From: an uncultured Thiothrix sp.
GTDB lineage: Bacteria; Pseudomonadota; Gammaproteobacteria; Poriferisulfidales; GCA-002705445
Direction: 5' to 3'
DNA: 64,000 bases
Assembly: GCA_902595225.1 (NCBI GenBank)
Contig: CACJPG010000002.1
Location: forward strand, 65,151-129,150
Made by a program: the position numbers and the translations under genes. The notes under the pieces were generated by a model, which made no database searches, had not been told where the DNA came from, and saw nothing but the letters and a program-made list of their open reading frames with translations. Of the stretch, positions 18,924 through 37,977 are shown in pieces. How positions within the stretch are numbered: position 1 is the first letter of the stretch; each line of letters opens with the position of its first letter.

Positions 18924-20747
18924 ATGTGCGGTATTGTTGCAGCAGCATCACAAAATAACGTGGTAAATATATTAGCTGATGGGTTAAAACATCTAGAATA
19001 TAGAGGTTACGATTCAGCAGGCATAGCTGTTATTGAAAATGAAAATATACATAGTTATAAAAAAGAAGGACATGTTTCTGAACTAACTAGTATTCTAGGT
19101 AAAGATCTAGCCTCGAATATTGGTATAGCACATACAAGATGGGCTACACATGGAAAACCATCTGAAGCAAATGCTCATCCCCATATATCTGAAAATAGTA
19201 TCGCAATTGTTCATAATGGTATTATTGAAAACTATATTGAAATAAAAGAAAAATTTTTTAAAAACATTAAGCTAGAATCCGAAACAGATTCCGAAGTATT
19301 AGCACATCTTATAAATTTTTATGCAAAAGATAATAATATTCTAGATGCTGTACATTCTGCCTTAAAAGAAGTTAAAGGCTCTTATGCAATCGCAGTCTTA
19401 GATAAAAATAATTCTAGCGAAATAATAGTTGCGCGCCATGGCAGTCCTCTTATTATTGGTGTTGGTGAAGATTCTAATTTCATTGCGTCTGATGCTCATG
19501 CTTTAATTGAACATACAAATCAATTTATATATTTAGATGATGGCGATATGGCTTCAGTGAGTTCAAGCGAAATAAATATTTTCGATAAAGATAAAAATTC
19601 CGTAAATAGAGAAATAAAAAAAAGTAACATTTCATTAGGAAGTAATTCAAAAAATGGATTTGAGCACTTTATGCTTAAAGAAATTTTTGAACAACCAGAG
19701 GCGGTTAAAGCAACAATTCAAGACCGAATAATAAATAACTCTGTACCTAAAGAGATTTTAGGGCCAAGTGCTGAAAAATATCTTGATGGTTTTAAGGTGG
19801 TTCAAATCATTGCATGTGGAACGAGTTATCATGCAGCCTTATTAGCAAAACATTGGTTTGAAAAACTTGCTGGAATTCCCTGCCAGGCAGAAATCGCAAG
19901 TGAATTTAGATATAGGAAGCACGCTGTTCAACCTGGAACATTATCCATATGTATTTCACAGTCTGGAGAGACAGCAGATACTCTTTCGGCATTAAGACAA
20001 ATAAAAGAAGAAAAGAATTATATTGGCACCATTGCAATATGCAATGTGCCAGAAAGTTCAATTGCAAGAGAATGCGATTCAACTTTAATAACACATGCGG
20101 GTCCTGAAATCGGAGTTGCATCAACAAAGGCTTTTACAACACAATTGGTTGCCTTAATGCTTTTAATAATTGTACTCGGGAAAAATTTTGAAATTTCGGA
20201 AGAAATTGAAAAATCACTATGTGAACAATTACAAACTTTACCTGAAAAGATTAAAAGCACCTTGGATTTAGACCAAGAAATAGCAGAACTCTCAAAAATA
20301 TTTTCTAATAAGGAGCATGCTCTATTTTTAGGTCGAGGCTCACATTTCCCAATAGCCAGAGAGGGCGCTTTAAAACTTAAAGAAATATCTTATATTCACG
20401 CAGAAGCTTACGCTGCAGGCGAGCTAAAACATGGGCCGCTTGCTATTGTTGACGAAAATATGCCAGTAGTAGCGGTTGCTCCAAATAATGTTGTTTTAGA
20501 GAAACTGAAATCAAATCTTGAAGAAGTTAAAGCACGTGGTGGAAAACTTTATATATTTGCAGATAAAAAAGCTGGATTTAAAAGTGACGAGATTTCTCAA
20601 GTTTTTGAAATCGATGCACCGCTAAATCCTGTCGCTCCGATACTTTTTACCATTCCTTTGCAACTTTTAGCATATCACTGCGCCATTATTAAAGGTACAA
20701 ATGTTGATATGCCTCGCAACCTTGCCAAATCGGTTACAGTGGAATGA
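18924..20747 (+). CDS. glmS: glutamine--fructose-6-phosphate aminotransferase
   Basis: 607 aa with the N-terminal MCGIV nucleophile, two SIS domains, and the canonical C-terminus ...PRNLAKSVTVE. Confidence 0.98.
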   Translation: MCGIVAAASQNNVVNILADGLKHLEYRGYDSAGIAVIENENIHSYKKEGHVSELTSILGKDLASNIGIAHTRWATHGKPSEANAHPHISENSIAIVHNGIIENYIEIKEKFFKNIKLESETDSEVLAHLINFYAKDNNILDAVHSALKEVKGSYAIAVLDKNNSSEIIVARHGSPLIIGVGEDSNFIASDAHALIEHTNQFIYLDDGDMASVSSSEINIFDKDKNSVNREIKKSNISLGSNSKNGFEHFMLKEIFEQPEAVKATIQDRIINNSVPKEILGPSAEKYLDGFKVVQIIACGTSYHAALLAKHWFEKLAGIPCQAEIASEFRYRKHAVQPGTLSICISQSGETADTLSALRQIKEEKNYIGTIAICNVPESSIARECDSTLITHAGPEIGVASTKAFTTQLVALMLLIIVLGKNFEISEEIEKSLCEQLQTLPEKIKSTLDLDQEIAELSKIFSNKEHALFLGRGSHFPIAREGALKLKEISYIHAEAYAAGELKHGPLAIVDENMPVVAVAPNNVVLEKLKSNLEEVKARGGKLYIFADKKAGFKSDEISQVFEIDAPLNPVAPILFTIPLQLLAYHCAIIKGTNVDMPRNLAKSVTVE

Positions 20748-25513: not shown

Positions 25514-25678
25514 ATGAAAAATAATATGAAAGAGTGTGAAGGGTGTGGAAATACAGTTGCAGTATATGCTAATAAATGCCCTAACTGCGGTGCATATACA
25601 CATAAAAGTTTTCAAATAATAGAACTTATTTTTGCAATCTTGACAGTCTCCTTCATTGTATGGTGGTTTATATTGTAA
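25514..25678 (+). CDS. cassette 7, ORF a: small zinc-ribbon protein with a C-terminal TM anchor
   Basis: Below the ORF-track cutoff. Hand translation gives MKNNMKECEGCGNTVAVYANKCPNCGAYTHKSFQIIELIFAILTVSFIVWWFIL (54 aa) with CxxC-x10-CxxC and a hydrophobic tail. Confidence 0.5.
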   Translation: MKNNMKECEGCGNTVAVYANKCPNCGAYTHKSFQIIELIFAILTVSFIVWWFIL

Positions 25679-25745
25679 TGAAATATTCCATTACAATAAA
25701 AAATATCCACACCTACAAAATAACAATTACCCGTATCACGAAAAA

Positions 25746-26396
25746 ATGAAAACCAAACTACTCACAATCTGTTTGCTCTTAGTCACCTCGCAGGTGTTTG
25801 CAGAAGAATGGGCGAATATTTATACTAATAGCGGTGATAAACTTCAAATAGCATTGCCTGACGGGTATTGTGATATTACTCAAACAAATGAAGGTAAATT
25901 TATACTTAATCACTTGAATAAGACAAAACGAAATCTTTCTATTTATAAAAATTTTGAAGCAAAAATTGTATATAATTTATGTGGAAAAAAATATGATTAT
26001 CCATGGGGTTATATATTTTTTAATAATCAAAAATATTCTTCTTCATACACACAAACAGATTTAAACAAACTTGAATCTTCCTCTTTCAATAAAACTTATA
26101 TAAATGAAATAAAAGAAAAAACAAATAAAAGTCATGATATTAATAATCAAGATATAAAAATAGAGTCAGTAGATAGACCTGAATTAGTTTGGGAGGACAA
26201 AAATGCACTGATTTTTTATACCAATATACAGGCAAATATTGAAGGGCAGAAGTTTATTGAAGAGGTAACAGGTAGCACTATTTTATTTAATGGTTACCAA
26301 TTTTCTATGTACATTTATGACAAAAAAGGCGCGCAAAATTCTCTTCATAATTCTCAGTTACTTTTAAATGCTGCTAAATCGACTAAAAGTAGGTAA
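25746..26396 (+). CDS. cassette 7, ORF b: secreted protein of unknown function
   Basis: The track ORF starts at 25656. The internal ATG at 25746 gives the conserved MKTKLLTICLLLVTSQVFA/EE signal peptide, so it is the preferred start (216 aa). Confidence 0.6.
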   Translation: MKTKLLTICLLLVTSQVFAEEWANIYTNSGDKLQIALPDGYCDITQTNEGKFILNHLNKTKRNLSIYKNFEAKIVYNLCGKKYDYPWGYIFFNNQKYSSSYTQTDLNKLESSSFNKTYINEIKEKTNKSHDINNQDIKIESVDRPELVWEDKNALIFYTNIQANIEGQKFIEEVTGSTILFNGYQFSMYIYDKKGAQNSLHNSQLLLNAAKSTKSR

Positions 26397-26429
26397 ATTA
26401 TATACTTACTAAGTAGTTACTAAGTAAAT

Positions 26430-26801
26430 ATGAAAACCAAACTACTCACAATCTGTTTGCTCTTATTCACCTCGCAAGCGTTTGCAGGATGGACTGAGGT
26501 TGGTAAAAATAGCAGTGGTACAATTTTTTATGTAGACTTTGATAGAACTAAAGAGCATAACGGTTATAAATATTTTTATATGTTAGGTGATTACTTGACA
26601 CCATATAACAATGTTTTATCAACTGAATATTATATTCAACTTGATTGTAATAAATATAGATATAGACATATCAGTTTTATATTTTATGATCAATCCATGG
26701 GTAAAGGAAACGGCAGAGTAGATAACGAAATGATGAAGTGGGAAAATATAACTAAAGGTACTATGAATTATACTGTTAGTAAAAAAGTTTGCGATCGCTA
26801 A
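26430..26801 (+). CDS. cassette 7, ORF c: secreted protein, Adhesin_E-like family
   Basis: 123 aa, MKTKLLTICLLLFTSQAFA/G, then WTEVGKNSSGTIFYVDFDR...YIQLDCNKYRYR...GKGNG...W.NI...VC. Confidence 0.6.
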   Translation: MKTKLLTICLLLFTSQAFAGWTEVGKNSSGTIFYVDFDRTKEHNGYKYFYMLGDYLTPYNNVLSTEYYIQLDCNKYRYRHISFIFYDQSMGKGNGRVDNEMMKWENITKGTMNYTVSKKVCDR

Positions 26802-26836
26802 AACAATATTAAAATATATCAGTGTTTGATGCATAA

Positions 26837-26945
26837 TTACACTATCACCTCCAGCACAAATTCCGTCACCGTAGAATAATTTTGTATGGACAGGGTGGGT
26901 CAGTCCTAATTTTACAATATTAAAATAATTGGTATTATTGAAAGA
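26837..26945 (+). repeat. repeat R7: type B left arm, core tccgtcaccgtagaataa, right arm, promoter-like module
   Basis: ttacactatcacctccagcacaaattccgtcaccgtagaataa ttttgtaTGGACAGGGTGGgtcagtcctaatTTTACA-16-TATTAT-7-ATG. Confidence 0.8.
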
Positions 26946-27701
26946 ATGAAAACCAAACTACTCACAATCTGTTTACTCTTATTTACTTCACAGGTGTTTG
27001 CAGAAGGTAAATGGACTTCAACAAATAAACCTAATTGCTTAGTATGGGATCCGGCACCTAGAGACGAACAGACTGTTACATGGTCAGGAGAATGTAAATC
27101 TGGGAAAATACATGGCAAAGGTTTATTAACATGGAATTTTAAAACAAATGGTACACCTCAAACTCAATTAAACGAAGGTGAATTTAAAAATGGACGATTT
27201 TTTGGTCGATTTAAATATACATTTGAAAATGGTGATATATATATTGGTGATGTGCATGAGGAAACTGGAGATATGCACGGACGAGGCACTTATAAATATA
27301 TCAATGGTGATAAGTACGTTGGTGAATATAAGAATGGTCTACTTCACGGACGAGGCACTGCTACCTTAGCAGATGGAGCAGAATATGTTGGAGAATTTAA
27401 AGAAGACAATATGCACGGACGAGGCACTTTTACTTTTCCTGATGGAGAACAGTACATAGGCGAGTGGAAAGAAAATGTTATGCACGGACGAGGCACTTAT
27501 AATTATGCCAATGGTGATAAGTACGTTGGTGAGTACAAGAATGACAATATGCACGGACGAGGCACTTTTACTTATCACAATGGTGATAAGTACGTTGGCG
27601 AGTGGAAAGAAAATGTTATGCACGGACGAGGCACCTACACTTTTGCAGATGGAACAAAAAAAATTGGTCAATTTAAGAATGACGAATATATCGGCAAATA
27701 A
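26946..27701 (+). CDS. cassette 8, ORF a: secreted MORN-repeat protein
   Basis: 251 aa, conserved signal peptide, then about 8 MORN units (Y.GE.KN...HGRGT..Y.NGDK). Confidence 0.8.
   Translation: MKTKLLTICLLLFTSQVFAEGKWTSTNKPNCLVWDPAPRDEQTVTWSGECKSGKIHGKGLLTWNFKTNGTPQTQLNEGEFKNGRFFGRFKYTFENGDIYIGDVHEETGDMHGRGTYKYINGDKYVGEYKNGLLHGRGTATLADGAEYVGEFKEDNMHGRGTFTFPDGEQYIGEWKENVMHGRGTYNYANGDKYVGEYKNDNMHGRGTFTYHNGDKYVGEWKENVMHGRGTYTFADGTKKIGQFKNDEYIGK
27273..27686 (+). repeat. 69-bp (23-codon) tandem repeats inside the MORN gene
   Basis: The cacggacgaggcac motif recurs at 27276, 27345, 27414, 27483, 27552 and 27621, an exact 69-nt period. Confidence 0.85.
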
Positions 27702-27760
27702 TTAAATCATCATTACTTGTTAATTATTCCATTCCTATAGTAACTTCAAAATAAATTTCT

Positions 27761-27810
27761 GGAATAAGGAAGAACTATAAAAATACTTAAAAAATTGCTA
27801 TAAAGGAAGT
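27761..27810 (+). repeat. second upstream element, copy T2c
   Basis: See T2b. Directly precedes the ATG at 27811. Confidence 0.7.
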
Positions 27811-28329
27811 ATGAAAACCAAACTACTCACAATCTGTTTACTCTTATTTACTTCACAGGTGTTTGCAGAAGAATGCAAAGGAAATTATTGGGATAATTGT
27901 TACAGCGCATACACTTTTACCGGTAAGTATGCAGGTGATAAATACATTGGCGAATGGAAGGATAACAAAATGCACGGACTCGGCACTTATACTTATGCCA
28001 TTGGAGATAAATACGTAGGTGAGTTTAAAAACGGAGATTTTCACGGACTTGGCACTTACACTTATGCCAGTGGAGATAAATACTTTGGTGAATATAAAAA
28101 TAATAACAGACATGGACAAGGCACTTACACTTATGCCAGTGGAGATAAATACTTTGGTGAATATAAAAATGATGAAAGATATGGACAAGGCACTTACACT
28201 TATGCCAACGGAGACAAATACGCTGGTGGATTTAAAAATGGCAAGTTTCACGGACAAGGTACTTACACTTATGCCAACGGAGACAAAGAAGTTGGTCAAT
28301 GGGAAAACGACGCATACGTCGGCAAATAA
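27811..28329 (+). CDS. cassette 8, ORF b: secreted MORN-repeat protein
   Basis: 172 aa, MKTKLLTICLLLFTSQVFA/EECKG..., with about 5-6 MORN units (GTYTYA.GDKY.GE.KN...HG.). Confidence 0.8.
   Translation: MKTKLLTICLLLFTSQVFAEECKGNYWDNCYSAYTFTGKYAGDKYIGEWKDNKMHGLGTYTYAIGDKYVGEFKNGDFHGLGTYTYASGDKYFGEYKNNNRHGQGTYTYASGDKYFGEYKNDERYGQGTYTYANGDKYAGGFKNGKFHGQGTYTYANGDKEVGQWENDAYVGK
27970..28310 (+). repeat. 69-bp tandem repeats inside the second MORN gene
   Basis: Unit-start codons at 27973, 28042, 28111, 28180 and 28249, period 69 nt. The units starting at 28111 and 28180 are nearly identical. Confidence 0.85.
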
Positions 28330-28438
28330 TTACTCTGTCACCTCCAACTCACCTTCCGTCACCGTGGAATAATTTTGTATGGACATGATGGGTCAGTCCT
28401 AATTTTACAATCTCAAAATAATCAGTAATATCAGTAGT
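28330..28438 (+). repeat. repeat R8: type B left arm, core tccgtcaccgtggaataa, right arm, promoter-like module
   Basis: ttactctgtcacctccaactcaccttccgtcaccgtggaataa ttttgtaTGGACATGATGGgtcagtcctaatTTTACA-16-TAATAT-7-ATG. Confidence 0.8.
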
Positions 28439-28780
28439 ATGAAAACCAAACTACTCGCAATCTGTTTACTCTTATTCACCTCGCAGGTGTTTGCGGCAGA
28501 TGTATTTGTATGTTCTTATAAAAATTATAAAAACGAGACACGTACATACACTTATATCAGAAAAGATGATGGTAAATTTGTTACCTTTTTAGACGATGTT
28601 GAAATTCCAATGGTAAAAACATATGAAGATAATACATACTTACATCTTGTAGTGTCATTTGAAAATTATTTATTCGCTAGGGTAATTAACAAAATAACTA
28701 AAAAGGTTGAGCAAGTGGGTATAGAAGAATCTAAAACATCAACTGTAGATAAAGTTTATGGAACTTGTAAGGTTAGATAA
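28439..28780 (+). CDS. cassette 9, ORF a: small secreted protein
   Basis: 113 aa, MKTKLLAICLLLFTSQVFA/A. Confidence 0.6.
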   Translation: MKTKLLAICLLLFTSQVFAADVFVCSYKNYKNETRTYTYIRKDDGKFVTFLDDVEIPMVKTYEDNTYLHLVVSFENYLFARVINKITKKVEQVGIEESKTSTVDKVYGTCKVR

Positions 28781-28823
28781 AAAAACGTAATCTACTTTAT
28801 AATAACAACTGAGGTACAAAAGT

Positions 28824-29180
28824 ATGAATATGATTGAATCTGTGACTACATGTTTAAGTAAATATTTTACGTTTGAAGGAGTTGCGACAAGACCAGAATA
28901 TTGGTGGTTCCAATTATTTTATTTCATAGTGATAATAGTCGGTATTGTGCTTGATGGTAATTCTACAAATTCCTGGGATCGAAATTATTACGGATATTGG
29001 GAACTAATATTTACATTATTATTTTTTATACCAGCAATTTCAGTGAGTTGTAGAAGACTTCATGATTTGGGTAAGTCAGGATGGTGGCAATTAATTGGGA
29101 TTACAATTATTGGTCTTATTCCATTGATTTACTGGTTTTGCAAAGAGGGAGGAGTTACAAGCAAATATTCTAGTGAATAA
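28824..29180 (+). CDS. cassette 9, ORF b: DUF805-family inner membrane protein
   Basis: 118 aa with F.G.ATRPEYWWF and RRLHDLGKSGWW motifs. Diverged paralog of 23089-23457. Confidence 0.75.
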   Translation: MNMIESVTTCLSKYFTFEGVATRPEYWWFQLFYFIVIIVGIVLDGNSTNSWDRNYYGYWELIFTLLFFIPAISVSCRRLHDLGKSGWWQLIGITIIGLIPLIYWFCKEGGVTSKYSSE

Positions 29181-29288
29181 TTGCACTATCACCTCCAACT
29201 CACATTCCGTAACAGTGGAATGAGTTCGTTTGGAAAGGGTGGGTCGGTCTGAATTTTACATTTTTTAAATATTCCGTATTATTTAAAT
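29181..29288 (+). repeat. repeat R9: type B left arm, core tccgtaacagtggaatga, right arm, promoter-like module
   Basis: ttgcactatcacctccaactcacattccgtaacagtggaatga gttcgtTTGGAAAGGGTGGgtcggtctgaatTTTACA-16-TATTAT-6-ATG. Confidence 0.8.
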
Positions 29289-29702
29289 ATGAAAATTAAA
29301 CTACTCGCAATCTGTTTACTTTTATTATCCTCGCAAGTGTTTGCGGATCCTGATTATAAGTGGAAGTATATGGCAGAAGGAAAGACTTATTTTTGGTATT
29401 GGGATAGCAAAAATTTGACTGAAAAAAATGATAATTATCTTTTGTGGGTATTATATGATAATAAATATATAGAAAAAGGTATAGGTTCTCAGGTTGCGCT
29501 AATTGAAATTGATTGTGCTTACAACAGATATAAGAATATTTACATAGAGTCTTATGATGGCCAAATGGCAAAAGGGAGAATGCTACATAAAATGAGTTCT
29601 GAAGATTTGCCAGATCATGATTTATGGAAATGGACTTTCATGATAAAAAATAAAAATATCCATAATTTATATTTTCTTTCTTATTGTGATAAAAGGAAAT
29701 AA
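29289..29702 (+). CDS. cassette 10: secreted protein, Adhesin_E-like family (divergent)
   Basis: 137 aa, MKIKLLAICLLLLSSQVFA/D, then W.Y....YFWYWDSKNL......LLWVLYDN....S.VALIEIDCAYNRYK...Y.G.MAKG...W.W....YCD. Confidence 0.5.
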   Translation: MKIKLLAICLLLLSSQVFADPDYKWKYMAEGKTYFWYWDSKNLTEKNDNYLLWVLYDNKYIEKGIGSQVALIEIDCAYNRYKNIYIESYDGQMAKGRMLHKMSSEDLPDHDLWKWTFMIKNKNIHNLYFLSYCDKRK

Positions 29703-29724
29703 TTGAATTTTAAGTGAATATAAG

Positions 29725-29830
29725 CCCCCTGTTTAAACAAACGAAATCAGTCACAGTGGAGTAGTTGCTTTTAGGAAGGATGGGTCCGTCCTAATTTTAC
29801 AATCTCAACAATAATTCGTATTATTGAAGT
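29725..29830 (+). repeat. repeat R10: degenerate type A left arm, core tcagtcacagtggagtag, right arm, promoter-like module
   Basis: ccccctgtttaaacaaacgaaatcagtcacagtggagtag ttgcttttaGGAAGGATGGgtccgtcctaatTTTACA-17-TATTAT-6-ATG. The spacer aaacgaaatcagtcac is shared with R1. Confidence 0.75.
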
Positions 29831-30190
29831 ATGAAAACTAAATTATTGATAACCTGCTTGTTATTTGCACCCTTATTAAGTTGGGGAGTAGATATGATTT
29901 CACCAATAAATTTTAATCCAACCCCTGCGAACAAGAATAAAGTAATTTCGTTTATTAAATATAATGTTAAAGAAACATATTCAAGAATTGGAATGGACAG
30001 TGAGTCAACTTTAAGAATGATGGAAGAAGAAGAGTTGAGGTGTTTTAAAGAACTTACAAAAGTACAAGATATCAATTTATTAAAGAGAGTTAAACGACAA
30101 CTTTGCAACATCGGTATGTGCACTTATTCTACTATTCTCATGATGTACAATGAAGAAGTCAGAGCGTCTAAAAAAAATCTTGAGTGGTAA
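29831..30190 (+). CDS. cassette 11, ORF a: small secreted protein
   Basis: 119 aa, MKTKLLITCLLFAPLLSWG.... Confidence 0.55.
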   Translation: MKTKLLITCLLFAPLLSWGVDMISPINFNPTPANKNKVISFIKYNVKETYSRIGMDSESTLRMMEEEELRCFKELTKVQDINLLKRVKRQLCNIGMCTYSTILMMYNEEVRASKKNLEW

Positions 30191-30203
30191 AATATAATAA
30201 AAA

Positions 30204-30548
30204 ATGAAAACCAAACTACTCACAATCTGTTTACTCTTATTTTCATCACAAGTGTGTGCAGAGACTTGGTCATGCACTTATGAGTTTAATGGCGAAACAA
30301 AAATCAAAGTTTTTTCTATTAAAGAAAATAAAGTTTATTCTAATGGAGAATTATATCAAAGTGCTAAAATACTTCTGAATAATAAAAATGTCATACACAT
30401 ATATACGAGTTATCCTCATATTGGTGATGTAACATTTTTTGCAGAAGTTTATAATAGAACCAACAAGAGATTTTCAATGGCAGCGATTAGTGCAATTAAA
30501 AATGAAAAATATGCTATTATTGAGGGTGATTGTATAATTACTAAATAA
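30204..30548 (+). CDS. cassette 11, ORF b: small secreted protein
   Basis: 114 aa, MKTKLLTICLLLFSSQVCA/E. Confidence 0.6.
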   Translation: MKTKLLTICLLLFSSQVCAETWSCTYEFNGETKIKVFSIKENKVYSNGELYQSAKILLNNKNVIHIYTSYPHIGDVTFFAEVYNRTNKRFSMAAISAIKNEKYAIIEGDCIITK

Positions 30549-30569
30549 AAATAATAAAAAGAGGATATC

Positions 30570-30875
30570 ATGGAAAAGTTTTTAACGTCACTAGGCATAG
30601 CAGGTGTTATCTTTTTTCTTCTACTTGGCATTGCTCAAATATATGTGGGATTTCTTGGTATAGAATACTTTTATGGTTCAATTTGGGCGTGGGTTGCCGT
30701 TTTTTGCGCATTTTTTCTACGTATCGTATTTCCTTGTACAATCGGATCTTATTTTGGAGCATTATACGTTTTAGAATGGGAGTGGTATTTTGCGCTAGCA
30801 TTCGCATTACCAGGTATTCTATTTATCCTTCCAGCGACAATAACTGCATTAATTTCATCATTCAACAAAAATTAA
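30570..30875 (+). CDS. cassette 11, ORF c: small polytopic membrane protein
   Basis: 101 aa, aromatic-rich, 3 TM segments, with an SD-like gaggat upstream. Confidence 0.55.
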   Translation: MEKFLTSLGIAGVIFFLLLGIAQIYVGFLGIEYFYGSIWAWVAVFCAFFLRIVFPCTIGSYFGALYVLEWEWYFALAFALPGILFILPATITALISSFNKN

Positions 30876-30932
30876 AATCAGTATTATTTACTTTTTTGGA
30901 TTTGAAAATTAAATTTAGGGAGATGGTTTTAA

Positions 30933-31229
30933 ATGGATAAAAGCATTTTTTGGATAGCGCCATTAGTTGTTTTGGGAGTTGGACTTCTTCCAATGCCCTA
31001 TGGTTATTATTTTCTATCTAGGTTAGTAGTATGTGTATGTGCAATTTATTATGCTTTGCAATTTAACGAGCATCGAGAGACAACATTAGTCTGGGTATTC
31101 AGTTTTTTTGCTATTTTATATAACCCAATTATACCTATTCATCTTGGAGCAAAAGGATTATGGATTGTTGTAAATTTAATTACTGCTGGAGTATTTTTTG
31201 CAAATAAGGATAAAATCCAATTGGGATAA
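30933..31229 (+). CDS. cassette 11, ORF d: small membrane protein (PYGYY...R...NPIIPIHLG-type family)
   Basis: 98 aa, 3-4 TM segments, SD agggag upstream. The motif layout resembles a widespread small membrane protein family. That is from memory and not verified. Confidence 0.55.
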   Translation: MDKSIFWIAPLVVLGVGLLPMPYGYYFLSRLVVCVCAIYYALQFNEHRETTLVWVFSFFAILYNPIIPIHLGAKGLWIVVNLITAGVFFANKDKIQLG

Positions 31230-31238
31230 TATGCTGAA

Positions 31239-31287
31239 GACGATAACCATCCTTTCCATATAAAAACATTCGGTAACAGTCGAATAA
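31239..31287 (+). repeat. repeat R11 (array terminus): type A left arm plus core tcggtaacagtcgaataa, with no right arm or module
   Basis: GACGATAACCATCCTTTCCatataaaaacattcggtaacagtcgaataa, followed by unrelated attattagaagtgc.... Confidence 0.8.
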
Positions 31288-31331
31288 ATTATTAGAAGTG
31301 CAAAAAAGTTCATATAGAACCTAATTAAAAA

Positions 31332-31541
31332 CTAGTCATCTTTTGGCTCGTTTTTAATTTTCCAACCATTTCTTTTTAAAGCTTCCACCAATGCTTTTAA
31401 TCTTTCTTCACGAGAAGAATCATTAGATAAATCGATTTTTTCAAAAAAGATATTCTTGAGACCCGTCTCTTTCTCTCTGGATTTTATATATTTTTTTTCT
31501 ATAAATTTAGAAAATGGAAAAACTTTAGAAATTTTTTTCAT
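31332..31541 (-). CDS. hypothetical small basic protein
   Basis: 69 aa ORF. No recognisable motif. Confidence 0.4.
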   Translation of the reverse strand: MKKISKVFPFSKFIEKKYIKSREKETGLKNIFFEKIDLSNDSSREERLKALVEALKRNGWKIKNEPKDD

Positions 31542-31652
31542 TCTAACTCCGCTTTAGTACTTTAGGCGATATGCCAAGGTGTACAAGTTGATTGATTAAA
31601 TACCTAACATCATTATATTGCTCAAGGCTGCATATGTCACTTAAATAAATAA

Positions 31653-31958
31653 TTACAAGATGATCTCAAATCCCTCAAACATTGGGCGACCTATGTAAAG
31701 AGGCTTATTTTTACCAGCATTTCTGTGTGCTTTTTTAAACGATTCAGATTTAGTCCATAAAATGAAATCATCTTTACTATCCCAAACTGAGTGGGATGAG
31801 TATAATGTGTACTCTTTATTTGATTCACCTTTTAAGAGATGAAATTCGTTAAATCCTTTGACTTCATCCAAATAGGTTTCACGAGTTCTCCAGACTTCCT
31901 CGAATTCTTTTTCTTTTCCTAATATAATTTTAAATCTATTCATTGCAATATATTTCAT
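31653..31958 (-). CDS. antibiotic biosynthesis monooxygenase (ABM) domain protein
   Basis: 101 aa with the typical ABM/ferredoxin-like pattern (MNRFKI..GKE.EFE..W..R...L....GF..F.LL......Y...S.W.S...F..W..S..F..AH). Confidence 0.6.
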   Translation of the reverse strand: MKYIAMNRFKIILGKEKEFEEVWRTRETYLDEVKGFNEFHLLKGESNKEYTLYSSHSVWDSKDDFILWTKSESFKKAHRNAGKNKPLYIGRPMFEGFEIIL

Positions 31959-32004
31959 CTTTCAAAGATAACATGATTTAATTTCTGTTAAAATATTTTA
32001 GATT

Positions 32005-32289
32005 ATGAAAACCAAATTACTAAATGAAAAAGAATTTAGGGCAATCCAAAAAGCGCGAAAGTTTGTTATTTTCTTTACTTTTTTGACATTTTTATTTCTT
32101 TTTATGCTCGTGCCAATAGAGGCGATTATTGAAGAAATTATCCTTCGAAAATGGAAATGGATAATACTATTCTTATTTTGCTTACTTGGTTACTGGTTGA
32201 GTTATACGCGTCAAACATTATCTATTTTGTCGGCGTTGCCTTTTATTATTTTACTCGGGCAAGTATGGCAGTTTACTATTTATAATTGA
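32005..32289 (+). CDS. small membrane protein
   Basis: 94 aa with 2-3 TM segments. The first 18 nt (atgaaaaccaaattacta) resemble the start of the array signal peptide. Confidence 0.5.
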   Translation: MKTKLLNEKEFRAIQKARKFVIFFTFLTFLFLFMLVPIEAIIEEIILRKWKWIILFLFCLLGYWLSYTRQTLSILSALPFIILLGQVWQFTIYN

Positions 32290-32317
32290 AAAAATAAGTT
32301 ATTACTTGAAAATTTAT

Positions 32318-32551
32318 TTAGCCCTCAAGCTTTTTCTTGATTTCTGTAACCTCAGATTTTATGTCTCTAAGCACGGCTGTGATCCCGCAAGCTATCATAG
32401 TCAATACAAAACCAACTGCTAAAACAAGCAAACCCAGCTCGAAGCTTGGCATATTAAATGAGGCAAGGAGTGTGATAAATAGTAAGACTAAGGCAATTAT
32501 CCCATTTAAAGCCCCAAAAAGAGTTGATACAATTTTGTTGATCTTATCCAT
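32318..32551 (-). CDS. small membrane protein
   Basis: 77 aa with two TM helices. Confidence 0.5.
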   Translation of the reverse strand: MDKINKIVSTLFGALNGIIALVLLFITLLASFNMPSFELGLLVLAVGFVLTMIACGITAVLRDIKSEVTEIKKKLEG

Positions 32552-32610
32552 AGTGATATCCTAAAGTTATAATCAATTTATTATACTAAAAATAAACGGA
32601 GGAGAAAATA

Positions 32611-33057
32611 ATGTTAAATGTATATTTGTCAGGAGAAATACATTCAAACTGGAGACAAGAGATTATTGATTTGTGTAAAGCAGAAAATTTAGATATAAAT
32701 TTCACTTCACCAGTAACCAATCATGAAGCATCAGATAATTGTGGAGTTGATATCTTGGGTTCCGAAGACAATAATTATTGGAAAGATAACAAAGGGGCAA
32801 AAATTAATTCTATTAAAACAAAAAAATCCATAGAAGATTCCGATGTCGTTATTGTTAAGTTTGGAGAAAAATATAAACAGTGGAATGCGGCTTTTGATGC
32901 AGGATTTGCTTCAGCTCTGAATAAATCAATGATTGTTATACATGGAGATGAGCATCAGCATGCTTTAAAAGAGGTTGACGCAGCCGCTTCTGCCGTTGCC
33001 AAGGATCAAGGTCAGGTGGTGAGAATTCTGAAATACATTATCCAAGGGAACCTATAA
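32611..33057 (+). CDS. YtoQ family protein (nucleoside 2-deoxyribosyltransferase-like fold)
   Basis: 148 aa starting M.NVYLSGEIHSNWRQEI, as I recall for the YtoQ family. Confidence 0.55.
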   Translation: MLNVYLSGEIHSNWRQEIIDLCKAENLDINFTSPVTNHEASDNCGVDILGSEDNNYWKDNKGAKINSIKTKKSIEDSDVVIVKFGEKYKQWNAAFDAGFASALNKSMIVIHGDEHQHALKEVDAAASAVAKDQGQVVRILKYIIQGNL

Positions 33058-33121
33058 TTTTAAATTAGGTGGCATCAAGGAGATATTTTCAATTTTTTCA
33101 AAATAGTTTATAGTTAAAGAT

Positions 33122-33478
33122 ATGAAAAATATAAAAAAATTATCATTAATAATTTTACTTTCAGTTTCAATAACATCTTGCGGCGGCTCTGATGTAATAG
33201 TGCAAATATATGGTGCATACGAATATAATTGCACAACAGACGAATATAGAGTTTTAAGTAATAATATGATTTTACCGTTTATGAAGAAAAATAAGTGGTA
33301 TACAAAAGAAGAATTTCACGAAGCACATGTTGAGCATGCATTAGAACCATACAAAAACTTACCTATGAGTGATAGCTCTCTTGCGAAAATAACACCAACT
33401 AGAGAAATGAGTGAAGCTTACTTGGGAGAAATGACCAAGGACATAGATTGCGAAAATCCGCAAGATATTAAATTCTAA
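33122..33478 (+). CDS. lipoprotein of unknown function
   Basis: 118 aa with a signal peptide and the lipobox-like ITSC. Confidence 0.55.
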   Translation: MKNIKKLSLIILLSVSITSCGGSDVIVQIYGAYEYNCTTDEYRVLSNNMILPFMKKNKWYTKEEFHEAHVEHALEPYKNLPMSDSSLAKITPTREMSEAYLGEMTKDIDCENPQDIKF

Positions 33479-33497
33479 GTCAAATACAAGTTTCATT

Positions 33498-33836
33498 ATG
33501 AAAATAAAATCAATCCTATTATTTTTATCAATCTTATCACTGCAGGCCTTTGCCACGAACGGAGAAATGTATGAGCTCAAATGTGACAGCGGCGCTATTC
33601 CTGGGCAGATAAAACGCTGGCATTTTAATCATAAAGATGTTTTCGAAATTTATACTAATGGTTATCGAAGAGTTTATGATCTTCAAAAAAAAGAAAATCA
33701 TAATATATTTGCTAGTGAAGATGCAGAAAATGGAATGTATTATGTAACGATTAGACTTGACAAAGATGAAAGGAGCGTATTAGTCGTTACCCCATTAGCA
33801 ACATATATTGATAGTAATTGCCAAAAAATCAAATAA
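33498..33836 (+). CDS. small secreted protein
   Basis: 112 aa with signal peptide ...LSLQAFA/T. Confidence 0.55.
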   Translation: MKIKSILLFLSILSLQAFATNGEMYELKCDSGAIPGQIKRWHFNHKDVFEIYTNGYRRVYDLQKKENHNIFASEDAENGMYYVTIRLDKDERSVLVVTPLATYIDSNCQKIK

Positions 33837-33840
33837 ATAA

Positions 33841-34287
33841 TTATAACTGTTCTTTTCTGATTAAAGATTTAATTTTATTCTCACTATATTCCTCTAAATC
33901 TTTAATATGAAGGGTTAAGGCGTAATGTGAATGTTGCGCTTCTATAATAAATAAAATAATTGCTAAAATTAGAAATACTACCGAAATAATAAAAAAATTA
34001 AGAGCAAAGTTATATAAGCCTACGAATACGCAAAAAATGGTAATTAAATTAAATAGAAAGGATACACTGGAAAAGGTTTGCATCCATCGAAGTAATAACA
34101 ATCTTTCAGACAAGATTTTGATCCTTTCTGCTGAGAGGTAATTTATTGAGTCGTCTTGAGCTAGAACATGAAGCTTTCTTATTAGCATAGCTAAAGCTGT
34201 ATATTTATTAGAAAAAACCAAAAGAAGTATTGGCATTGCTGGAAATAATAATGCGGGATACCAAAAAAAATTGCTATCAATGTTCAT
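33841..34287 (-). CDS. DUF2721-like membrane protein
   Basis: The track ORF runs to 34323. I prefer the start at MNIDSNFF.... Three TM segments and the ...LIRKLH... pattern resemble DUF2721 (from memory). Confidence 0.5.
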   Translation of the reverse strand: MNIDSNFFWYPALLFPAMPILLLVFSNKYTALAMLIRKLHVLAQDDSINYLSAERIKILSERLLLLRWMQTFSSVSFLFNLITIFCVFVGLYNFALNFFIISVVFLILAIILFIIEAQHSHYALTLHIKDLEEYSENKIKSLIRKEQL

Positions 34288-34400
34288 ACATTTGTAAATG
34301 CATATATTGTGCCAACATAACAAATGTTTTTGAAATTTTTAGAAGGATTGTACAAGGATGTATATGTTAAAATATCATGTTACAAATTTGAGGCGCAAAA

Positions 34401-34697
34401 TTGGCATACGTAAATTTGAAGAAAACTACCCTAATCTTTTTTTTGGCTATTATCCAAGTTCAAATAAGTTATAGCGATCATAATCTTTATGAATTTGAAA
34501 AATACTGCAATATAGCTTGGGACGGCGATATTGGTAAGGTCGAGTGCGCTGAATCTGTATCTTATGGAGTTTATCTTGAGAGAAATTGCGAGACAAGATG
34601 GGATATGGATGAAGGTGTGTTTTATTGTAGAGGCAGTCATTTTCGATCTATTAAGAAAAGGTGCACTGCTGATGATCGTGGAAATATCAAATGTTAA
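34401..34697 (+). CDS. small secreted Cys-rich protein
   Basis: 98 aa, TTG start, hydrophobic N-terminus, 7 Cys in the mature part. Confidence 0.45.
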   Translation: MAYVNLKKTTLIFFLAIIQVQISYSDHNLYEFEKYCNIAWDGDIGKVECAESVSYGVYLERNCETRWDMDEGVFYCRGSHFRSIKKRCTADDRGNIKC

Positions 34698-34752
34698 AAA
34701 CAATTTATTAAGTCTACTGTAAAGATGATATTATCTTAAAAAAAGTTTTAAT

Positions 34753-34881
34753 ATGATGAAAGATTATAAGATTATCTATATGTTATTTATTTTTGTAATA
34801 CTAGCTTTTGCCAGCTTTTATTACATGGATCGCTATTTAAATGATATTCGCACAACTACTGAAATGGAAAAGGGAAAGTGA
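34753..34881 (+). CDS. possible 42-aa single-TM protein
   Basis: Hand translation gives MMKDYKIIYMLFIFVILAFASFYYMDRYLNDIRTTTEMEKGK. Its stop overlaps the GTG start of the next ORF (GTGA). Confidence 0.3.
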   Translation: MMKDYKIIYMLFIFVILAFASFYYMDRYLNDIRTTTEMEKGK

Positions 34882-35153
34882 GCGCAGATTTAAGTGATAG
34901 TATAAAAAGACTCGCAAAAAAAGGAAAAGAAAATGGTTTTGTTCTAATCTCAGAATTAGATGAAATTATTAAAAATCTTAAAGTTGCAGATCAACAATAC
35001 ATTAAAGACGGTCTAGAGGAATTGGAGATTCAGATTGTAAAAACACCAAAAGACTACGACGAATACAAGTATATGACAGGAGAGCAAGCAATTGAATTTT
35101 TACAGAGTCTTAGCGATGGAAAAACAAAGGCATTTGTAAAAGAGGAAGATTAA
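34878..35153 (+). CDS. stand-alone sigma-70 region 1.1-like protein
   Basis: 91 aa. ...LAKKGKENGFVLISELDEII...IKDGLEELEIQIV... resembles the RpoD N-terminal region 1.1. No sigma regions 2-4 are present. Confidence 0.45.
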   Translation: MSADLSDSIKRLAKKGKENGFVLISELDEIIKNLKVADQQYIKDGLEELEIQIVKTPKDYDEYKYMTGEQAIEFLQSLSDGKTKAFVKEED

Positions 35154-35188
35154 ATTGCCTGTCTTTATCCTTAAGATTTAACTTTATA

Positions 35189-35674
35189 ATGAAATTATTT
35201 TTACTTAGGCACGCAAAGTCAGCATGGAGATCTTTTGAAAATGATCATGACCGTGCTTTATCTGAAAGAGGTTTAGGAGATGCCAAGACACTAGCTGAGC
35301 ATATTTCTAATAGTCAAATCAGTTTTAGTAAGATACTTTGTTCAACCGCAAGACGAACCAAAGAAACTTTAAAAATTATTAAAGAAAATTCATCATATGC
35401 TTTCAAGGATATTAATTATACAGAGAATTTATATCATGCCTCTGAATCAATAATGAGAGATATTATTGAAGAAACGCAAACAGATTCTTTATTAATTGTA
35501 TCTCATAACCCAAGTATATCAGGCATGATTTCATATTTATCAGGGTCGCAAGTATATAATTTCCCAACATGTGTGTTCGCTTGCTTTAGTTTGGATGAGA
35601 AAAATATAGATAAAGACGTAAAGACAGAATATATAATTAGGCCTAAAGAGGGGAAAATAATCAGTTTAATTTAA
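35189..35674 (+). CDS. sixA: phosphohistidine phosphatase SixA-type (histidine phosphatase superfamily)
   Basis: 161 aa with MKLFLLRHAKS...RALSERG and ...SHNP.... Confidence 0.65.
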   Translation: MKLFLLRHAKSAWRSFENDHDRALSERGLGDAKTLAEHISNSQISFSKILCSTARRTKETLKIIKENSSYAFKDINYTENLYHASESIMRDIIEETQTDSLLIVSHNPSISGMISYLSGSQVYNFPTCVFACFSLDEKNIDKDVKTEYIIRPKEGKIISLI

Positions 35675-35687
35675 ATATGAAGTTGGT

Positions 35688-36005
35688 ATGAAAACGAAAT
35701 TTTTTTTTATAGTAATCGTATTGTCTTATTCGTGTGCGTTTGCGAAAGATTGTGAAGGCGAATTGAGTGATCAATGGAGCGACTGCGTGGGCACTATCAA
35801 TTCATGGTACGGCACTTATATCGGAGAATTTAAGAATGGAATGAAACACGGCAAAGGAACGATCCATTACTATAACGGGGATAAATTTGTAGGAGAATTT
35901 GAGGATGGTGAAAAAAATGGCAAGGGAAAGTTTACTTATTCGAGCGGGGAAACAAGTTCAGGAATGTGGGAAGATGATCTGTTTATAGGAAATAATGAAC
36001 AATAA
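35688..36005 (+). CDS. secreted MORN-repeat protein (outside the array)
   Basis: 105 aa, MKTKFFF...CAFA/KDCEG..W.DC.G, then YIGEFKNGMKHGKGT..YYNGDKFVGEFEDGEKNGKG. Confidence 0.7.
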   Translation: MKTKFFFIVIVLSYSCAFAKDCEGELSDQWSDCVGTINSWYGTYIGEFKNGMKHGKGTIHYYNGDKFVGEFEDGEKNGKGKFTYSSGETSSGMWEDDLFIGNNEQ

Positions 36006-36091
36006 AAATATTAGCATGTATAAAGTATAAAAAAGTAAAGAATGTCCCTATGATTTCTTCCTTAAGACCATAGGGCATCCATAAAGAGCAA

Positions 36092-36289
36092 CTAAGCGTC
36101 TTTTTCAGAATCTTCCATAACTTCTGATGACTCTTCTTTGCTATCTTTTTCCATTTTCACAGATTCTTTAGTCTCTTCTGCATGATCATGGTCTGCTGCA
36201 CGGTCTGCATCATCCTTATGTGCCCCGCTACAGTGACCAGCAAAAGATACTGCTGAGAAAAAATATAAAACTAATAATAAATATCTCAT
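36092..36289 (-). CDS. small secreted acidic His/Cys-containing protein (tandem paralog 1)
   Basis: 65 aa, signal peptide ...FFSAVSFA/GHCSGAHKDD..., acidic Ser/Glu/Lys-rich tail ending EKDA. Confidence 0.55.
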   Translation of the reverse strand: MRYLLLVLYFFSAVSFAGHCSGAHKDDADRAADHDHAEETKESVKMEKDSKEESSEVMEDSEKDA

Positions 36290-36311
36290 GATATGTCTCC
36301 TGTAAATTTAA

Positions 36312-36512
36312 TTAGGCGTCTTTTTCCGCTTTGTTCATTGCGTCAGACGATTCATCTTTACTTTCTTTTTCAGTTTTAGCGGACTCATTTGATTCCATGT
36401 AACCAGCTTGGTCGGCCTGACGATCTGGACCATTATGACTAGCACCAGAATTACAATGATTTGCAAATGAAATCGCTGAGAAAAAGTAAATTACAAACAA
36501 TAAATATTTCAT
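36312..36512 (-). CDS. small secreted acidic His/Cys-containing protein (tandem paralog 2)
   Basis: 66 aa, ...FFSAISFA/NHCNSGASHNG..., tail ending EKDA. Paralog of 36092-36289. Confidence 0.55.
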   Translation of the reverse strand: MKYLLFVIYFFSAISFANHCNSGASHNGPDRQADQAGYMESNESAKTEKESKDESSDAMNKAEKDA

Positions 36513-36671
36513 GTAAACCTCCTAAAAATATTGAAGGTTTAGTCTATACAAAATATCTTTTATATCTATATGTAAAATATCTGTACATATTTATATGTGC
36601 AAAATATATACATTTCCACTTTTTACACACTTATGAAGCACTATATCGGTATTTCTTGATATATTGCTTTT

Positions 36672-37103: not shown

Positions 37104-37194
37104 AATCTTATTCCTTGCCTTTTTAGCATTATTTTTTTCAAAATCGAGAGTGGTCTTTTTTTCTTACAAAAACTGCGAATAATCGTTAAATAAT

Positions 37195-37416: not shown

Positions 37417-37977
37417 TTGGCTATGTTTATGTTAAAACAAATTTTAAAAATTTACTTATTCTTTTTTATTATGACCAACCAAGTTAGTGCAGAAGAAATA
37501 TTTAAAGATGATTTTGAAGACTCTTCAAAATGGAAATTTATTGCAGACGATGTCATGGGTGGATTATCAACTGGTAGTGTGGTTTATGAAATGGAAGAAG
37601 GAACATCAATCGCTTATCTTAATGGAGAAGTTACGACCGAAAACAATGGCGGTTTTATTCAATTACAAAGAAAATTGAAAGACGTTGATTTAGATCAAGC
37701 AAGGTTTATAAAAATTATTGCGAGAGGGAATAATCAAAAATATTTTATTCATTTACGAACCACAGGAACTATACTTCCTTGGCAATATTATCAATCCTCG
37801 TTTACAGTAAAAGAAAATTACCAAGAGTTTATTCTGCCACTAAATGAATTTAAACGATCTGGATCATTCCTATCAGATAAAGTAAAACCAAGAACCATCA
37901 AATCTATAGGAGTTGTAGCATTTGGTAGAGACCACGTGGCCAACCTATATGTTAAAGAAATTTCTTTTATAAAATAA
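37417..37977 (+). CDS. CIA30 (complex I intermediate-associated protein 30)-domain protein, secreted
   Basis: 186 aa. W.FI.DDVMGGLSTG and ...GGFIQL... are typical of CIA30. The start is uncertain (TTG 37417, or ATG 37423/37429). Confidence 0.6.
   Translation: MAMFMLKQILKIYLFFFIMTNQVSAEEIFKDDFEDSSKWKFIADDVMGGLSTGSVVYEMEEGTSIAYLNGEVTTENNGGFIQLQRKLKDVDLDQARFIKIIARGNNQKYFIHLRTTGTILPWQYYQSSFTVKENYQEFILPLNEFKRSGSFLSDKVKPRTIKSIGVVAFGRDHVANLYVKEISFIK

What the first reader, a model, noticed from the sequence alone, without database searches (positions are those of the whole stretch)
31239..31330. Distal array boundary: a half-site that may preserve the ancestral glmS terminus and original downstream flank
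R11 has a good type A left arm and an intact S-V-T-V-E-stop core (tcg gta aca gtc gaa taa). It then continues into sequence (attattagaagtgcaaaaaagttcatatag...) with no right arm, no promoter module and no signal-peptide ORF. Under the serial-insertion model this core would be the original glmS end of the lineage, displaced about 10.5 kb from the gene. The DNA to its right, including the convergent ORF 31332-31541, would be the original glmS downstream neighbourhood.
Basis: inference. Interest (0 to 1): 0.6.

Follow-up and report, generated by a model that had tools for sequence, protein, structure and literature searches.

The report
Last recognisable joint of glmS cassette array
The half-site is real and is the last recognisable joint of a stack of small mobile gene cassettes inserted into the final codons of glmS, but the DNA to its right is an older, decayed cassette rather than the original chromosome.

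Summary
R11 is confirmed. It has a type-A left arm (31239-31269) and a core TCGGTAACAGTCGAATAA (31270-31287, S-V-T-V-E-stop). A model built from 13 other sites scores it at 45 bits (E 6e-13). No right arm, promoter module or signal-peptide ORF follows.

The insertion model holds in relatives. In G010 the distal half-site is followed by the DNA that directly follows glmS in G003. One cassette is 95% identical between two GTDB families whose glmS ends are only 65% identical.

- The core is probably a chimera. Arm symmetry (9 of 11 cassettes) and linkage of the variable core positions place the crossover at the invariant A7|C8. Bases 31270-31276 would then have arrived with the last cassette.
- The 69-aa ORF is a cassette gene. 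In 7 of 8 contexts it lies just after a core, and in one contig cores bound its cassette on both sides. In the closest relative, ABM (31653-31958) abuts the last core.

Backbone synteny resumes only at the CIA30 gene (37417).

No recombinase other than XerC/XerD is encoded in the genus. The closest analogue is an SCC composite island.

Earlier notes of this scan describe the same kind of array in SAR86 genomes.

The parts
18924..20747 (+). glmS. Its last 18 nt (20730-20747, TCGGTTACAGTGGAATGA) form the first core of the array and are followed by a type-A right arm (20748-20768).
   Evidence: Pfam SIS and GATase domains; sequence; core list.
29747..29764 (+). Core R10 (TCAGTCACAGTGGAGTAG), the upstream joint of the last canonical cassette.
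29765..31276 (+). Last canonical cassette. It holds a right arm (29765-29790), a promoter module, four ORFs (29831-30190, 30204-30548, 30570-30875, and 30933-31229 = DUF6804), a left arm, and the first 7 nt of the R11 core.
   Evidence: The variant AAGGATGG in the right arm (29776-29783) is exactly complementary to the variant CCATCCTT in the R11 left arm (31247-31254). Their symmetry centre falls at core position 7.0. Pfam DUF6804.
31239..31269 (+). R11 left arm, type A.
   Evidence: nhmmer 45 bits, E 5.9e-13, with a model that excludes R11.
31270..31287 (+). R11 core, TCGGTAA|CAGTCGAATAA (S-V-T-V-E-stop). The inferred crossover lies between 31276 and 31277. The 5' 7 nt are cassette-derived; the 3' 11 nt belong with the flank.
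   Evidence: dyad centre; linkage of variable positions.
31288..31331 (+). Orphan 44-nt spacer, possibly the truncated head of a lost cassette. No right arm, and no homologue anywhere.
   Evidence: In the nearest contig, L069, the same position holds an unrelated 77-nt truncated type-D cassette head.
31332..31628 (-). 69-aa gene module: ORF 31332-31541 plus its conserved upstream region to about 31628. It is a cassette gene of unknown function.
   Evidence: Found next to a core in G004, G011, L069, L070, L071 and L073 as well as the window. No Pfam, PDB or PHROG match.
31633..31652 (+). Position homologous to the intact distal core of G001 and L070. At most a relic (..GTCAC..AAATAAATAA) remains. 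This reading is tentative.
   Evidence: BLAST homology with G001 starts 5 nt inside G001's distal core (G001 800 aligns with window 31648); alignments. Not detected by nhmmer. It overlaps a minus-strand promoter-like match.
31653..31958 (-). ABM-domain gene. It is the first gene after the last core in G001 and L070.
   Evidence: Pfam ABM.
32318..32551 (-). 77-aa membrane ORF. In G006 it is the gene just after the last core, headed by the same short arm (ttttRtttgataaNtaaa) as the 69-aa cassettes.
37417..37977 (+). CIA30-domain gene, the first gene of the backbone synteny shared across the genus. It lies directly after the single cassette in G019.
   Evidence: Pfam CIA30; synteny map; upstream regions.

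Best explanation
R11 is a recombination joint of the element-arm + core + previous-occupant kind. It is the equivalent of the distal att site of a composite SCC island.

How the array works (inferred): small cassettes exist as units whose two ends are inverted repeats placed symmetrically around an 18-nt copy of the glmS terminus. A site-specific recombinase exchanges strands at or next to the invariant AC of the threonine codon (core positions 7|8). That enzyme is not encoded in this genome or genus, so it would act in trans. The geometry fits a serine recombinase best. Each insertion into the glmS end gives glmS a new, still-coding last 11 bases plus the cassette's right arm. The cassette's left arm and first 7 core bases are left joined to whatever stood behind glmS before.

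What R11 is: at R11 the left arm and TCGGTAA (to 31276) belong to the last canonical cassette (29765-31276). CAGTCGAATAA and the DNA to the right are what that cassette was inserted in front of.

What lies to its right: that earlier occupant was already cassette-derived. It comprises a 44-nt orphan stub, then the 69-aa gene module, whose own distal site next to ABM has decayed, probably by deletion. R11 is therefore the last recognisable site of the array, the border between its intact and fossil parts. It is not the border between mobile DNA and the original chromosome.

Shown: the site itself, the before and after states in relatives, the horizontal spread of one cassette, and the cassette status of the 69-aa gene.
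Inferred: the crossover point, the order of events, and the type of enzyme.
For: 1. R11 is a true member of the site family.

2. Its left arm carries a G-to-T variant that exactly complements a C-to-A variant in the right arm after R10. The two are therefore ends of one unit.

3. Eleven cassettes of arm types A, B and C, in five genomes, have own-end inverted repeats. The symmetry centre falls at core position 7.0 in 9 of them, 7.5 in one and 9.0 in one.

4. Linkage across 47 sites:
- Core position 3 is linked to the left flank (p<0.0005) and not to the right (p=0.38).
- Positions 9 and 18 are linked to the right flank (p=0.03 and 0.006) and not to the left.

5. Twelve of 15 type-A sites start TCG, against 1 of 13 glmS-linked cores.

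6. Before and after states: G003 has glmS + CAGTAGAATAA + gtagtagta... + a MORN gene. G010 has the same 393 nt (88.5% identical) behind four cassettes and a type-A arm.

7. Mobility: the last cassette of G010 and the only cassette of G019 are 95.3% identical over 703 nt. The adjacent glmS 3' ends are 65% identical.

8. The 69-aa gene has a core or degenerate core 18-77 nt beyond its stop codon in 7 of 8 contexts. L070 reads core, 69-aa gene, signal-peptide ORF, left arm B + core, ABM.

9. G001 reads glmS, one cassette, left arm B + core, ABM.

10. Backbone synteny resumes at CIA30. In G019 that gene follows the distal core directly. In G007 it carries a degenerate core plus a canonical right arm and promoter.
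Against: - No recombinase is identified. Each of 15 genus genomes has at most three tyrosine-recombinase matches, two in most. The two in G000 type as XerD and XerC-like. There is no resolvase-domain gene in 17 family genomes or in G019.
- The relic core next to ABM is not statistically detectable. It also overlaps a promoter-like match.
- In the cassette shared by G010 and G019, identity runs to core position 14, and the two copies have different right arms. Either exchanges do not all occur at position 7|8, or the conserved promoter module also recombines.
- Several cassettes in this window have unlike arm types at their two ends.
- The sites compared come from related arrays and are not independent.
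- All comparators are metagenome-assembled genomes.
Confidence: 0.68

Rival explanations
1. R11's whole core is the intact ancestral glmS terminus, pushed 10.5 kb downstream. The DNA from 31288 on, including the 69-aa ORF, is the original non-mobile glmS neighbourhood.
For: - R11 has an element arm on the left and no arm on the right, as expected for the outermost joint.
- In the window, L069 and G011, the 69-aa gene follows the last recognisable core.
- GTC at the fourth codon is unique within this array.
Against: - No glmS in 53 genomes of the order ends this way.
- No genome places 31288 onward next to glmS.
- The 5' part, TCGGTAA, is the arm-A-linked variant. The closest relatives' glmS ends read TCTGTTA.
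- The 69-aa gene lies inside cassettes in G004 and L070, and is absent from G001 and G006.
Confidence: 0.1
2. R11 was an ordinary internal junction with a full right arm. A later deletion removed that arm and the head of the next cassette, and fused the core to the 69-aa module. On this view the half-site shape says nothing about the order of insertion.
For: - The flank keeps AGTGCAA(A), which matches the end of type-B right arms.
- In L069 the same position holds a clearly truncated type-D cassette head fused to the 69-aa ORF end.
- Internal junctions without right arms exist at window 25346, G010 3373 and G007 2151.
Against: - The arm match is not significant once five arm types (six reference sequences) are allowed for.
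- No homologue of the 44 nt exists to show what was deleted.
Confidence: 0.17
3. The repeats are not recombination sites. They would be hairpin elements, such as terminators or RNA signals, that spread with the genes, and R11 would be a truncated copy. Alternatively, the array is shuffled only by homologous recombination between its conserved segments (core, promoter module, signal-peptide sequence).
For: - No recombinase is found.
- Long, nearly identical promoter and signal-peptide segments could support homologous exchange.
- In the G010/G019 cassette pair, identity starts at the promoter module and not at the arm.
Against: - Presence/absence differences between genomes break exactly at cores.
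- The arm symmetry has a fixed centre inside the core, whatever the arm type.
- Variation in the core is confined to third-codon positions, which implies that cores repeatedly serve as the real glmS end.
- An 18-nt core with 2-4 mismatches is too short for RecA-type exchange (established knowledge).
- R11 on its own does not fold (z = 0.15).
- No Rfam family matches.
Confidence: 0.05

Closest known systems
Staphylococcal cassette chromosome (SCC/SCCmec) composite islands at the 3' end of rlmH, moved by the CcrAB/CcrC large serine recombinases (facts taken from PMC13739063)
   Same: - Insertion into the last codons of a conserved housekeeping gene, which stays intact.
- Every element boundary repeats the gene's terminus.
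- Element ends are degenerate inverted repeats (half-sites) around a central dinucleotide.
- Tandem stacks occur in which the element furthest from the gene is read as the oldest.
- Elements without their own recombinase exist.
- R11 corresponds to the distal att site (element half-site + chromosomal half-site).
   Different: - The target is glmS, not rlmH.
- Cassettes are 0.5-1.5 kb with one to four small genes, not 20-60 kb.
- No serine recombinase gene was found in any of the 18 related genomes searched.
- The inner 11 nt on each side of the centre are not symmetric.
- Hosts are small-genome marine Gammaproteobacteria.
- Most cassettes carry their own promoter and a shared signal peptide.
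Integrons, including sedentary chromosomal integrons and integrase-less attC clusters (CALINs)
   Same: - An array of small, mostly single-gene, same-strand cassettes separated by imperfect palindromes.
- Content differs completely between related genomes.
- Insertion occurs at a fixed platform.
   Different: - No IntI is present; the two tyrosine recombinases are XerD and XerC-like.
- The palindrome is split between the two ends of each cassette instead of sitting whole at its 3' end.
- The symmetry centre lies in a coding-derived core.
- The platform is the end of glmS, not an attI next to intI.
- Cassettes bring their own promoters.
Tn7-family transposons at attTn7 downstream of glmS
   Same: They use the highly conserved glmS terminus as a safe landing site, and they can accumulate islands downstream of glmS.
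   Different: - Tn7 inserts about 25 bp beyond the stop codon and does not duplicate the glmS codons (established knowledge).
- No TnsD and no rve-type transposase is found in the genome.
Integrase-borne genomic islands at the 3' ends of tRNA or protein genes (for example tycheposons, from my own knowledge), and Xer-dependent elements and dif modules
   Same: Insertion duplicates the 3' end of the target gene, and tandem arrays carry partial target repeats.
   Different: - No integrase lies in or near the array.
- By eye, the sites show no resemblance to the genome's only dif-like sequence (G000 contig C1, about position 239418).

Membership tests
SCC-type cassette chromosome (large serine recombinase) | Integration into the 3' terminal codons of a conserved gene, with the terminus repeated at each element boundary | tested here: met
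   There are 12 SVTVE-stop cores from 20730 to 31287. The first is the real glmS end.
SCC-type cassette chromosome (large serine recombinase) | att sites made of two inverted half-sites around a central crossover dinucleotide | tested here: inconclusive
   The arms are symmetric about core position 7|8 (the invariant AC) in 9 of 11 informative cassettes, and linkage switches between positions 6 and 9. The crossover itself was not observed.
SCC-type cassette chromosome (large serine recombinase) | Ccr-type or other large serine recombinase carried by at least some elements | tested here: not met
   No PF00239 match in 17 genomes of the family or in G019. The only trace is an orphan resolvase-type HTH (PF02796, 33.8 bits) after a half-site in G007.
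SCC-type cassette chromosome (large serine recombinase) | Distal att site = element half-site + chromosomal half-site | tested here: met
   R11, G010 5885, G019 909 and G001 787 all have a left arm, a core and non-arm DNA. The G010 flank equals the DNA that directly follows glmS in G003.
Integron | intI integrase gene next to the array | tested here: not met
   The genome has only two PF00589 genes, both far from the array. One types as XerD (374 bits, above its cut-off). The other scores best as XerC (324.5 bits, just under its 335-bit cut-off). Integron-integrase models score far below their cut-offs.
Integron | A complete attC palindrome at the 3' end of each cassette, with the crossover in its outer R' box | tested here: not met
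   One-cassette arrays (G001, G019) contain one right arm, one left arm and two cores. The palindrome is therefore split by the crossover. The centre lies in the core.
Tn7-like element at attTn7 | TnsABC+D genes, with insertion beyond the glmS stop codon and no duplication of glmS codons | tested here: not met
   No TnsD (PF15978) or rve (PF00665) in the genome. The glmS codons are duplicated at every joint.
Xer-dependent integrative element or dif module | 28-30-bp dif-like sites (XerC arm, 6-8-bp centre, XerD arm) at module boundaries | tested here: not met
   The only dif-like sequence is on contig C1. By eye, the cores and arms show no resemblance to it, and the arms lie 21-32 nt apart. 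XerC/XerD remain the only resident recombinases, so their activity cannot be excluded.

The most novel reading that the evidence does not exclude
The whole 16.7 kb between glmS and the CIA30 gene (20748-37416) is a one-way, time-ordered stack. Cassettes would enter at the glmS end through a crossover at the invariant AC of the threonine codon, made by a recombinase that these 1-Mb genomes do not encode. They would then be pushed outward, lose their sites, and become the 'repeat-free flexible region'. On this reading R11 is the visible border between the live and the fossil part of an undescribed gene-capture system. Earlier notes of this scan report the same kind of system in SAR86.
Probability: 0.4. 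Interest if true: 0.75.

Novelty: new variant of a known kind. Interest (0 to 1): 0.5.

Why it matters
The distal joint, read together with relatives, gives the clearest before-and-after evidence that this array grows by site-specific insertion into the last codons of an essential gene. It also narrows the crossover to a two-base centre. That gives a concrete substrate (arm-core-arm against glmS end + flank) for finding the missing enzyme.

The analysis also suggests that the apparently repeat-free flexible region of small secreted and membrane proteins behind the array may be made of old cassettes. That would tie a common feature of streamlined marine genomes to a specific capture mechanism.

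Tried and rejected
- Relic sites right of R11. nhmmer with type-A and type-B arm+core models finds nothing in 31288-38000. The 'decayed core' at 31633-31652 rests only on positional homology with G001, G006 and L070.
- A vestigial type-B right arm after R11. Only a 7-8-mer matches, and it is not significant after correction.
- Terminator or RNA structure at R11. The fold gives z = 0.15, no terminator-like site is found, and no Rfam family matches.
- Resident recombinase. No resolvase-domain gene in the family, no rve and no TnsD. The tyrosine recombinases are XerD and XerC-like.
- The orphan resolvase HTH of G007. It has no relative in 53 genomes of the order and only a 39%-identical hit in viral contigs.
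- Phage carriage of the sites. Two viral-contig scans gave only chance arm matches, none followed by a core.
- Function of the 69-aa protein. Nothing from Pfam, PHROGs or a PDB profile search.
- Exact-sequence look-ups of two 69-aa variants found no record.
- Literature. Three searches found no description of a glmS-linked cassette array.
- The organism's name was not resolved. Record titles of congeners read 'Gammaproteobacteria bacterium LRMED-300' and 'Thiothrix sp.' MAGs.

Full report
**Context**

The window carries atpD, atpC, glmU and glmS (18924-20747). Behind glmS lies about 10.5 kb of small same-strand ORFs separated by composite repeats. Each full repeat has three parts:
- a left arm, type A (GACGATAACCATCCTGTCC...) or type B (CACTATCACCTCCAA.TCAC...);
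- an 18-nt core that copies the last five codons and the stop codon of glmS;
- a right arm, followed by a promoter-like module and usually a conserved signal peptide.

The genome is a 1.01-Mb, 31% G+C, 84%-complete metagenome-assembled genome.

- R11 reads gacgataaccatcctttccatataaaaacat (31239-31269) + TCGGTAACAGTCGAATAA (31270-31287).
- An nhmmer model built from 13 other type-A sites, ten of them from other contigs or genomes, scores it at 45.0 bits, E 5.9e-13 over 64 kb.
- Nothing arm-like follows the core, and the flank is unique.
- No further site is detectable up to 38000.
- R11 alone has no RNA structure, and no Rfam family matches the region.
- A right arm is also missing at an internal junction, 25346-25363. 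The half-site shape is therefore not diagnostic of the array's end.

**The insertion model is supported by relatives**

I fetched the DNA behind glmS in twelve relatives.

- G003 versus G010. In G003, glmS ends TCAGTCACAGTAGAATAA and runs straight into gtagtagtaaattttgtac... and a MORN gene. In G010 four cassettes intervene. The distal half-site (type-A arm + TCGGTTACAGTAGAATAA) is followed by the same DNA, 88.5% identical over 393 nt starting at the core.
- G010 versus G019. The last cassette of G010 and the only cassette of G019, which belongs to a different GTDB family, are 95.3% identical over 703 nt. The neighbouring 200 nt of glmS are 65% identical. Cassettes therefore move horizontally.
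- One-cassette arrays (G001, G019) contain two cores, one right arm (at glmS) and one left arm (distal). That is what a crossover inside the core of a circular arm-core-arm unit would produce.

**Where the crossover lies, and what that means for R11's core**

- For every cassette I compared its own two ends. Eleven cassettes of arm types A, B and C, in five genomes, have a clear inverted repeat. The symmetry centre falls at core position 7.0 in nine, 7.5 in one and 9.0 in one. The arms start 4, 5 or 9 nt from the core depending on type, so the shared centre is not an artefact of arm position.
- Across 47 sites, variable core position 3 is linked to the left flank (p<0.0005) but not to the right (p=0.38). 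Positions 9 and 18 are linked to the right flank (p=0.03 and 0.006) but not to the left.
- Twelve of 15 type-A sites begin TCG. Only one of 13 glmS-linked cores does.
- G005 and G008 use AGT for the serine at glmS. No cassette-borne core does.
- The crossover is therefore most likely at or beside the invariant AC (A7|C8).
- In R11, TCGGTAA (31270-31276) would have come with the cassette. Only CAGTCGAATAA could be older.
- R11's left arm has the variant CCATCCTT (31247-31254). It is exactly complementary to AAGGATGG (29776-29783) in the right arm after R10. The last canonical cassette therefore spans 29765-31276.

**What lies to the right**

The 69-aa ORF (31332-31541, minus strand) was found in eight contexts: the window, G004, G011 and five metagenome contigs.

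- In L070, L071, L073 and G011 it sits immediately after a core plus a short head, ttttgtttgataagtaaa.
- In G004 it sits after a degenerate core plus an intact type-B right arm, one cassette away from glmS.
- L070 shows the full unit: core, 69-aa gene (minus strand), signal-peptide ORF (plus strand), type-B left arm + core TCCGTCACGGTGGAATAA, then ctataagata... and ABM.
- G001, whose glmS is the closest (88%), has glmS, one cassette, type-B left arm + core, then ctataagatt... and ABM. It has no 69-aa gene.
- In the window and its nearest contig L069, the 69-aa module is fused to ABM. Homology with G001 begins 5 nt inside G001's distal core, at window 31648. The homologous position, about 31633-31652, keeps at most GTCAC...AAATAAATAA. 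This relic is not statistically detectable, so I treat it as tentative.
- Between core and ORF, the window has 44 orphan nucleotides. L069 has an unrelated 77-nt truncated type-D cassette head. Deletions evidently trim this spot.
- The 77-aa ORF at 32318-32551 is the gene just after the last core in G006, behind the same short head.
- The MORN gene at 35688 has its homologue right after the core in G003 and G010.

Gene-by-gene comparison shows that synteny shared across the genus resumes only at the CIA30-domain gene (37417) and runs on to ppc. In G019 the CIA30 gene follows the distal core directly. In G007 it carries a degenerate core, a canonical right arm and the promoter module.

The 'original neighbourhood' is therefore a relative notion. 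R11's flank is what preceded the last insertion, and that DNA was itself cassette-derived.

**The enzyme**

- Each of 15 genus genomes has at most three PF00589 matches, two in most. In this genome the two type as XerD and XerC-like.
- No resolvase-domain gene occurs in 17 genomes of the family or in G019.
- The genome has no rve and no TnsD.
- Viral contigs carry no such sites.
- By eye, the genome's only dif-like sequence does not resemble the sites.
- The only trace of a serine recombinase is an orphan resolvase-type HTH ORF just after a half-site in G007.
- A two-base invariant centre flanked by freely varying third-codon positions fits a serine recombinase better than a tyrosine recombinase, which needs a longer identical overlap. 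This rests on established knowledge and is an inference.
- Earlier notes of this scan propose large serine recombinases for similar arrays in SAR86. I could confirm the mid-core crossover. I could not confirm the presence of such an enzyme in this lineage.

**Comparison with known systems**

The best analogue is the SCC composite island at rlmH. It has a terminus-repeating att site at every boundary, inverted half-sites around a central dinucleotide, a distal site made of element half plus chromosomal half, outermost-is-oldest ordering, and recombinase-less passengers (PMC13739063). Membership fails on the recombinase. Integron and Tn7 membership fail on defining features (see the table). Three literature searches found no description of a glmS-linked cassette array.

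**Verdict**

R11 is the last recognisable joint of the array and probably a chimeric core. The convergent 69-aa ORF is not ancestral neighbourhood. As a single feature it is a passive scar.

Noticed in passing
L057 (G007) 2151-2397: A 54-aa ORF that is only the C-terminal HTH of a resolvase/invertase (PF02796, 33.8 bits). It lies 65 nt after a half-site (TCGGTAACAGTCGAATAG) that, like R11, has GTC GAA and no right arm. A DNA methyltransferase-like gene (402 aa, minus strand) follows in the same cassette. This is the only trace of a serine recombinase in the family.
   Followed up: partly
L061 (G043, a 3.0-Mb genome of the same order), reverse strand 4292-12380: Three copies of at least 50 nt of the glmS 3' coding end, plus a fourth core. 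They separate blocks that carry DNA methyltransferase-like and apparent restriction-modification genes, with no integrase seen. This is a larger-scale version of insertion at the glmS end.
   Followed up: no
G000 contig C12 (5090 nt): A separate 5-kb contig of the same genome holds four more cores with arms of types A, B, C and D, and different cassettes. Its ends are 93% and 88% identical to window 22907-23012 and 22190-22247. It is probably an alternative array version from a co-occurring strain.
   Followed up: partly
window 25346-25363: An internal junction (type-B left arm + TCCGTAACAGTGGAGTGA) with no right arm after it. The half-site shape is therefore not confined to the distal end.
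   Followed up: no
window 31571-31617: 47 nt upstream of the 69-aa ORF are 96% identical between the window and G011, while the ORF itself is about 75% identical. They contain promoter-like hexamers for the minus strand. This may be a conserved promoter or operator.
   Followed up: no
L057 (G007) about 6270-6400: In G007 the backbone CIA30 gene is preceded by a degenerate core (CCTGTCATAGCGGAATAG), a canonical type-A right arm and the cassette promoter module. Even this conserved gene looks cassette-derived.
   Followed up: partly
L056 (G012), reverse strand 2158-2583: In G012 the rhodanese gene (homologue of window 36672-37103) starts with the canonical cassette signal peptide MKTKLLTICFLFITSQVFA, although G012 has no extra core.
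   Followed up: no
G000 contig C1, about 239390-239418, minus strand: The only dif-like sequence in the genome is ..CGTAAAATATATTATGTTAAAT. It is unrelated to the cassette sites.
   Followed up: no
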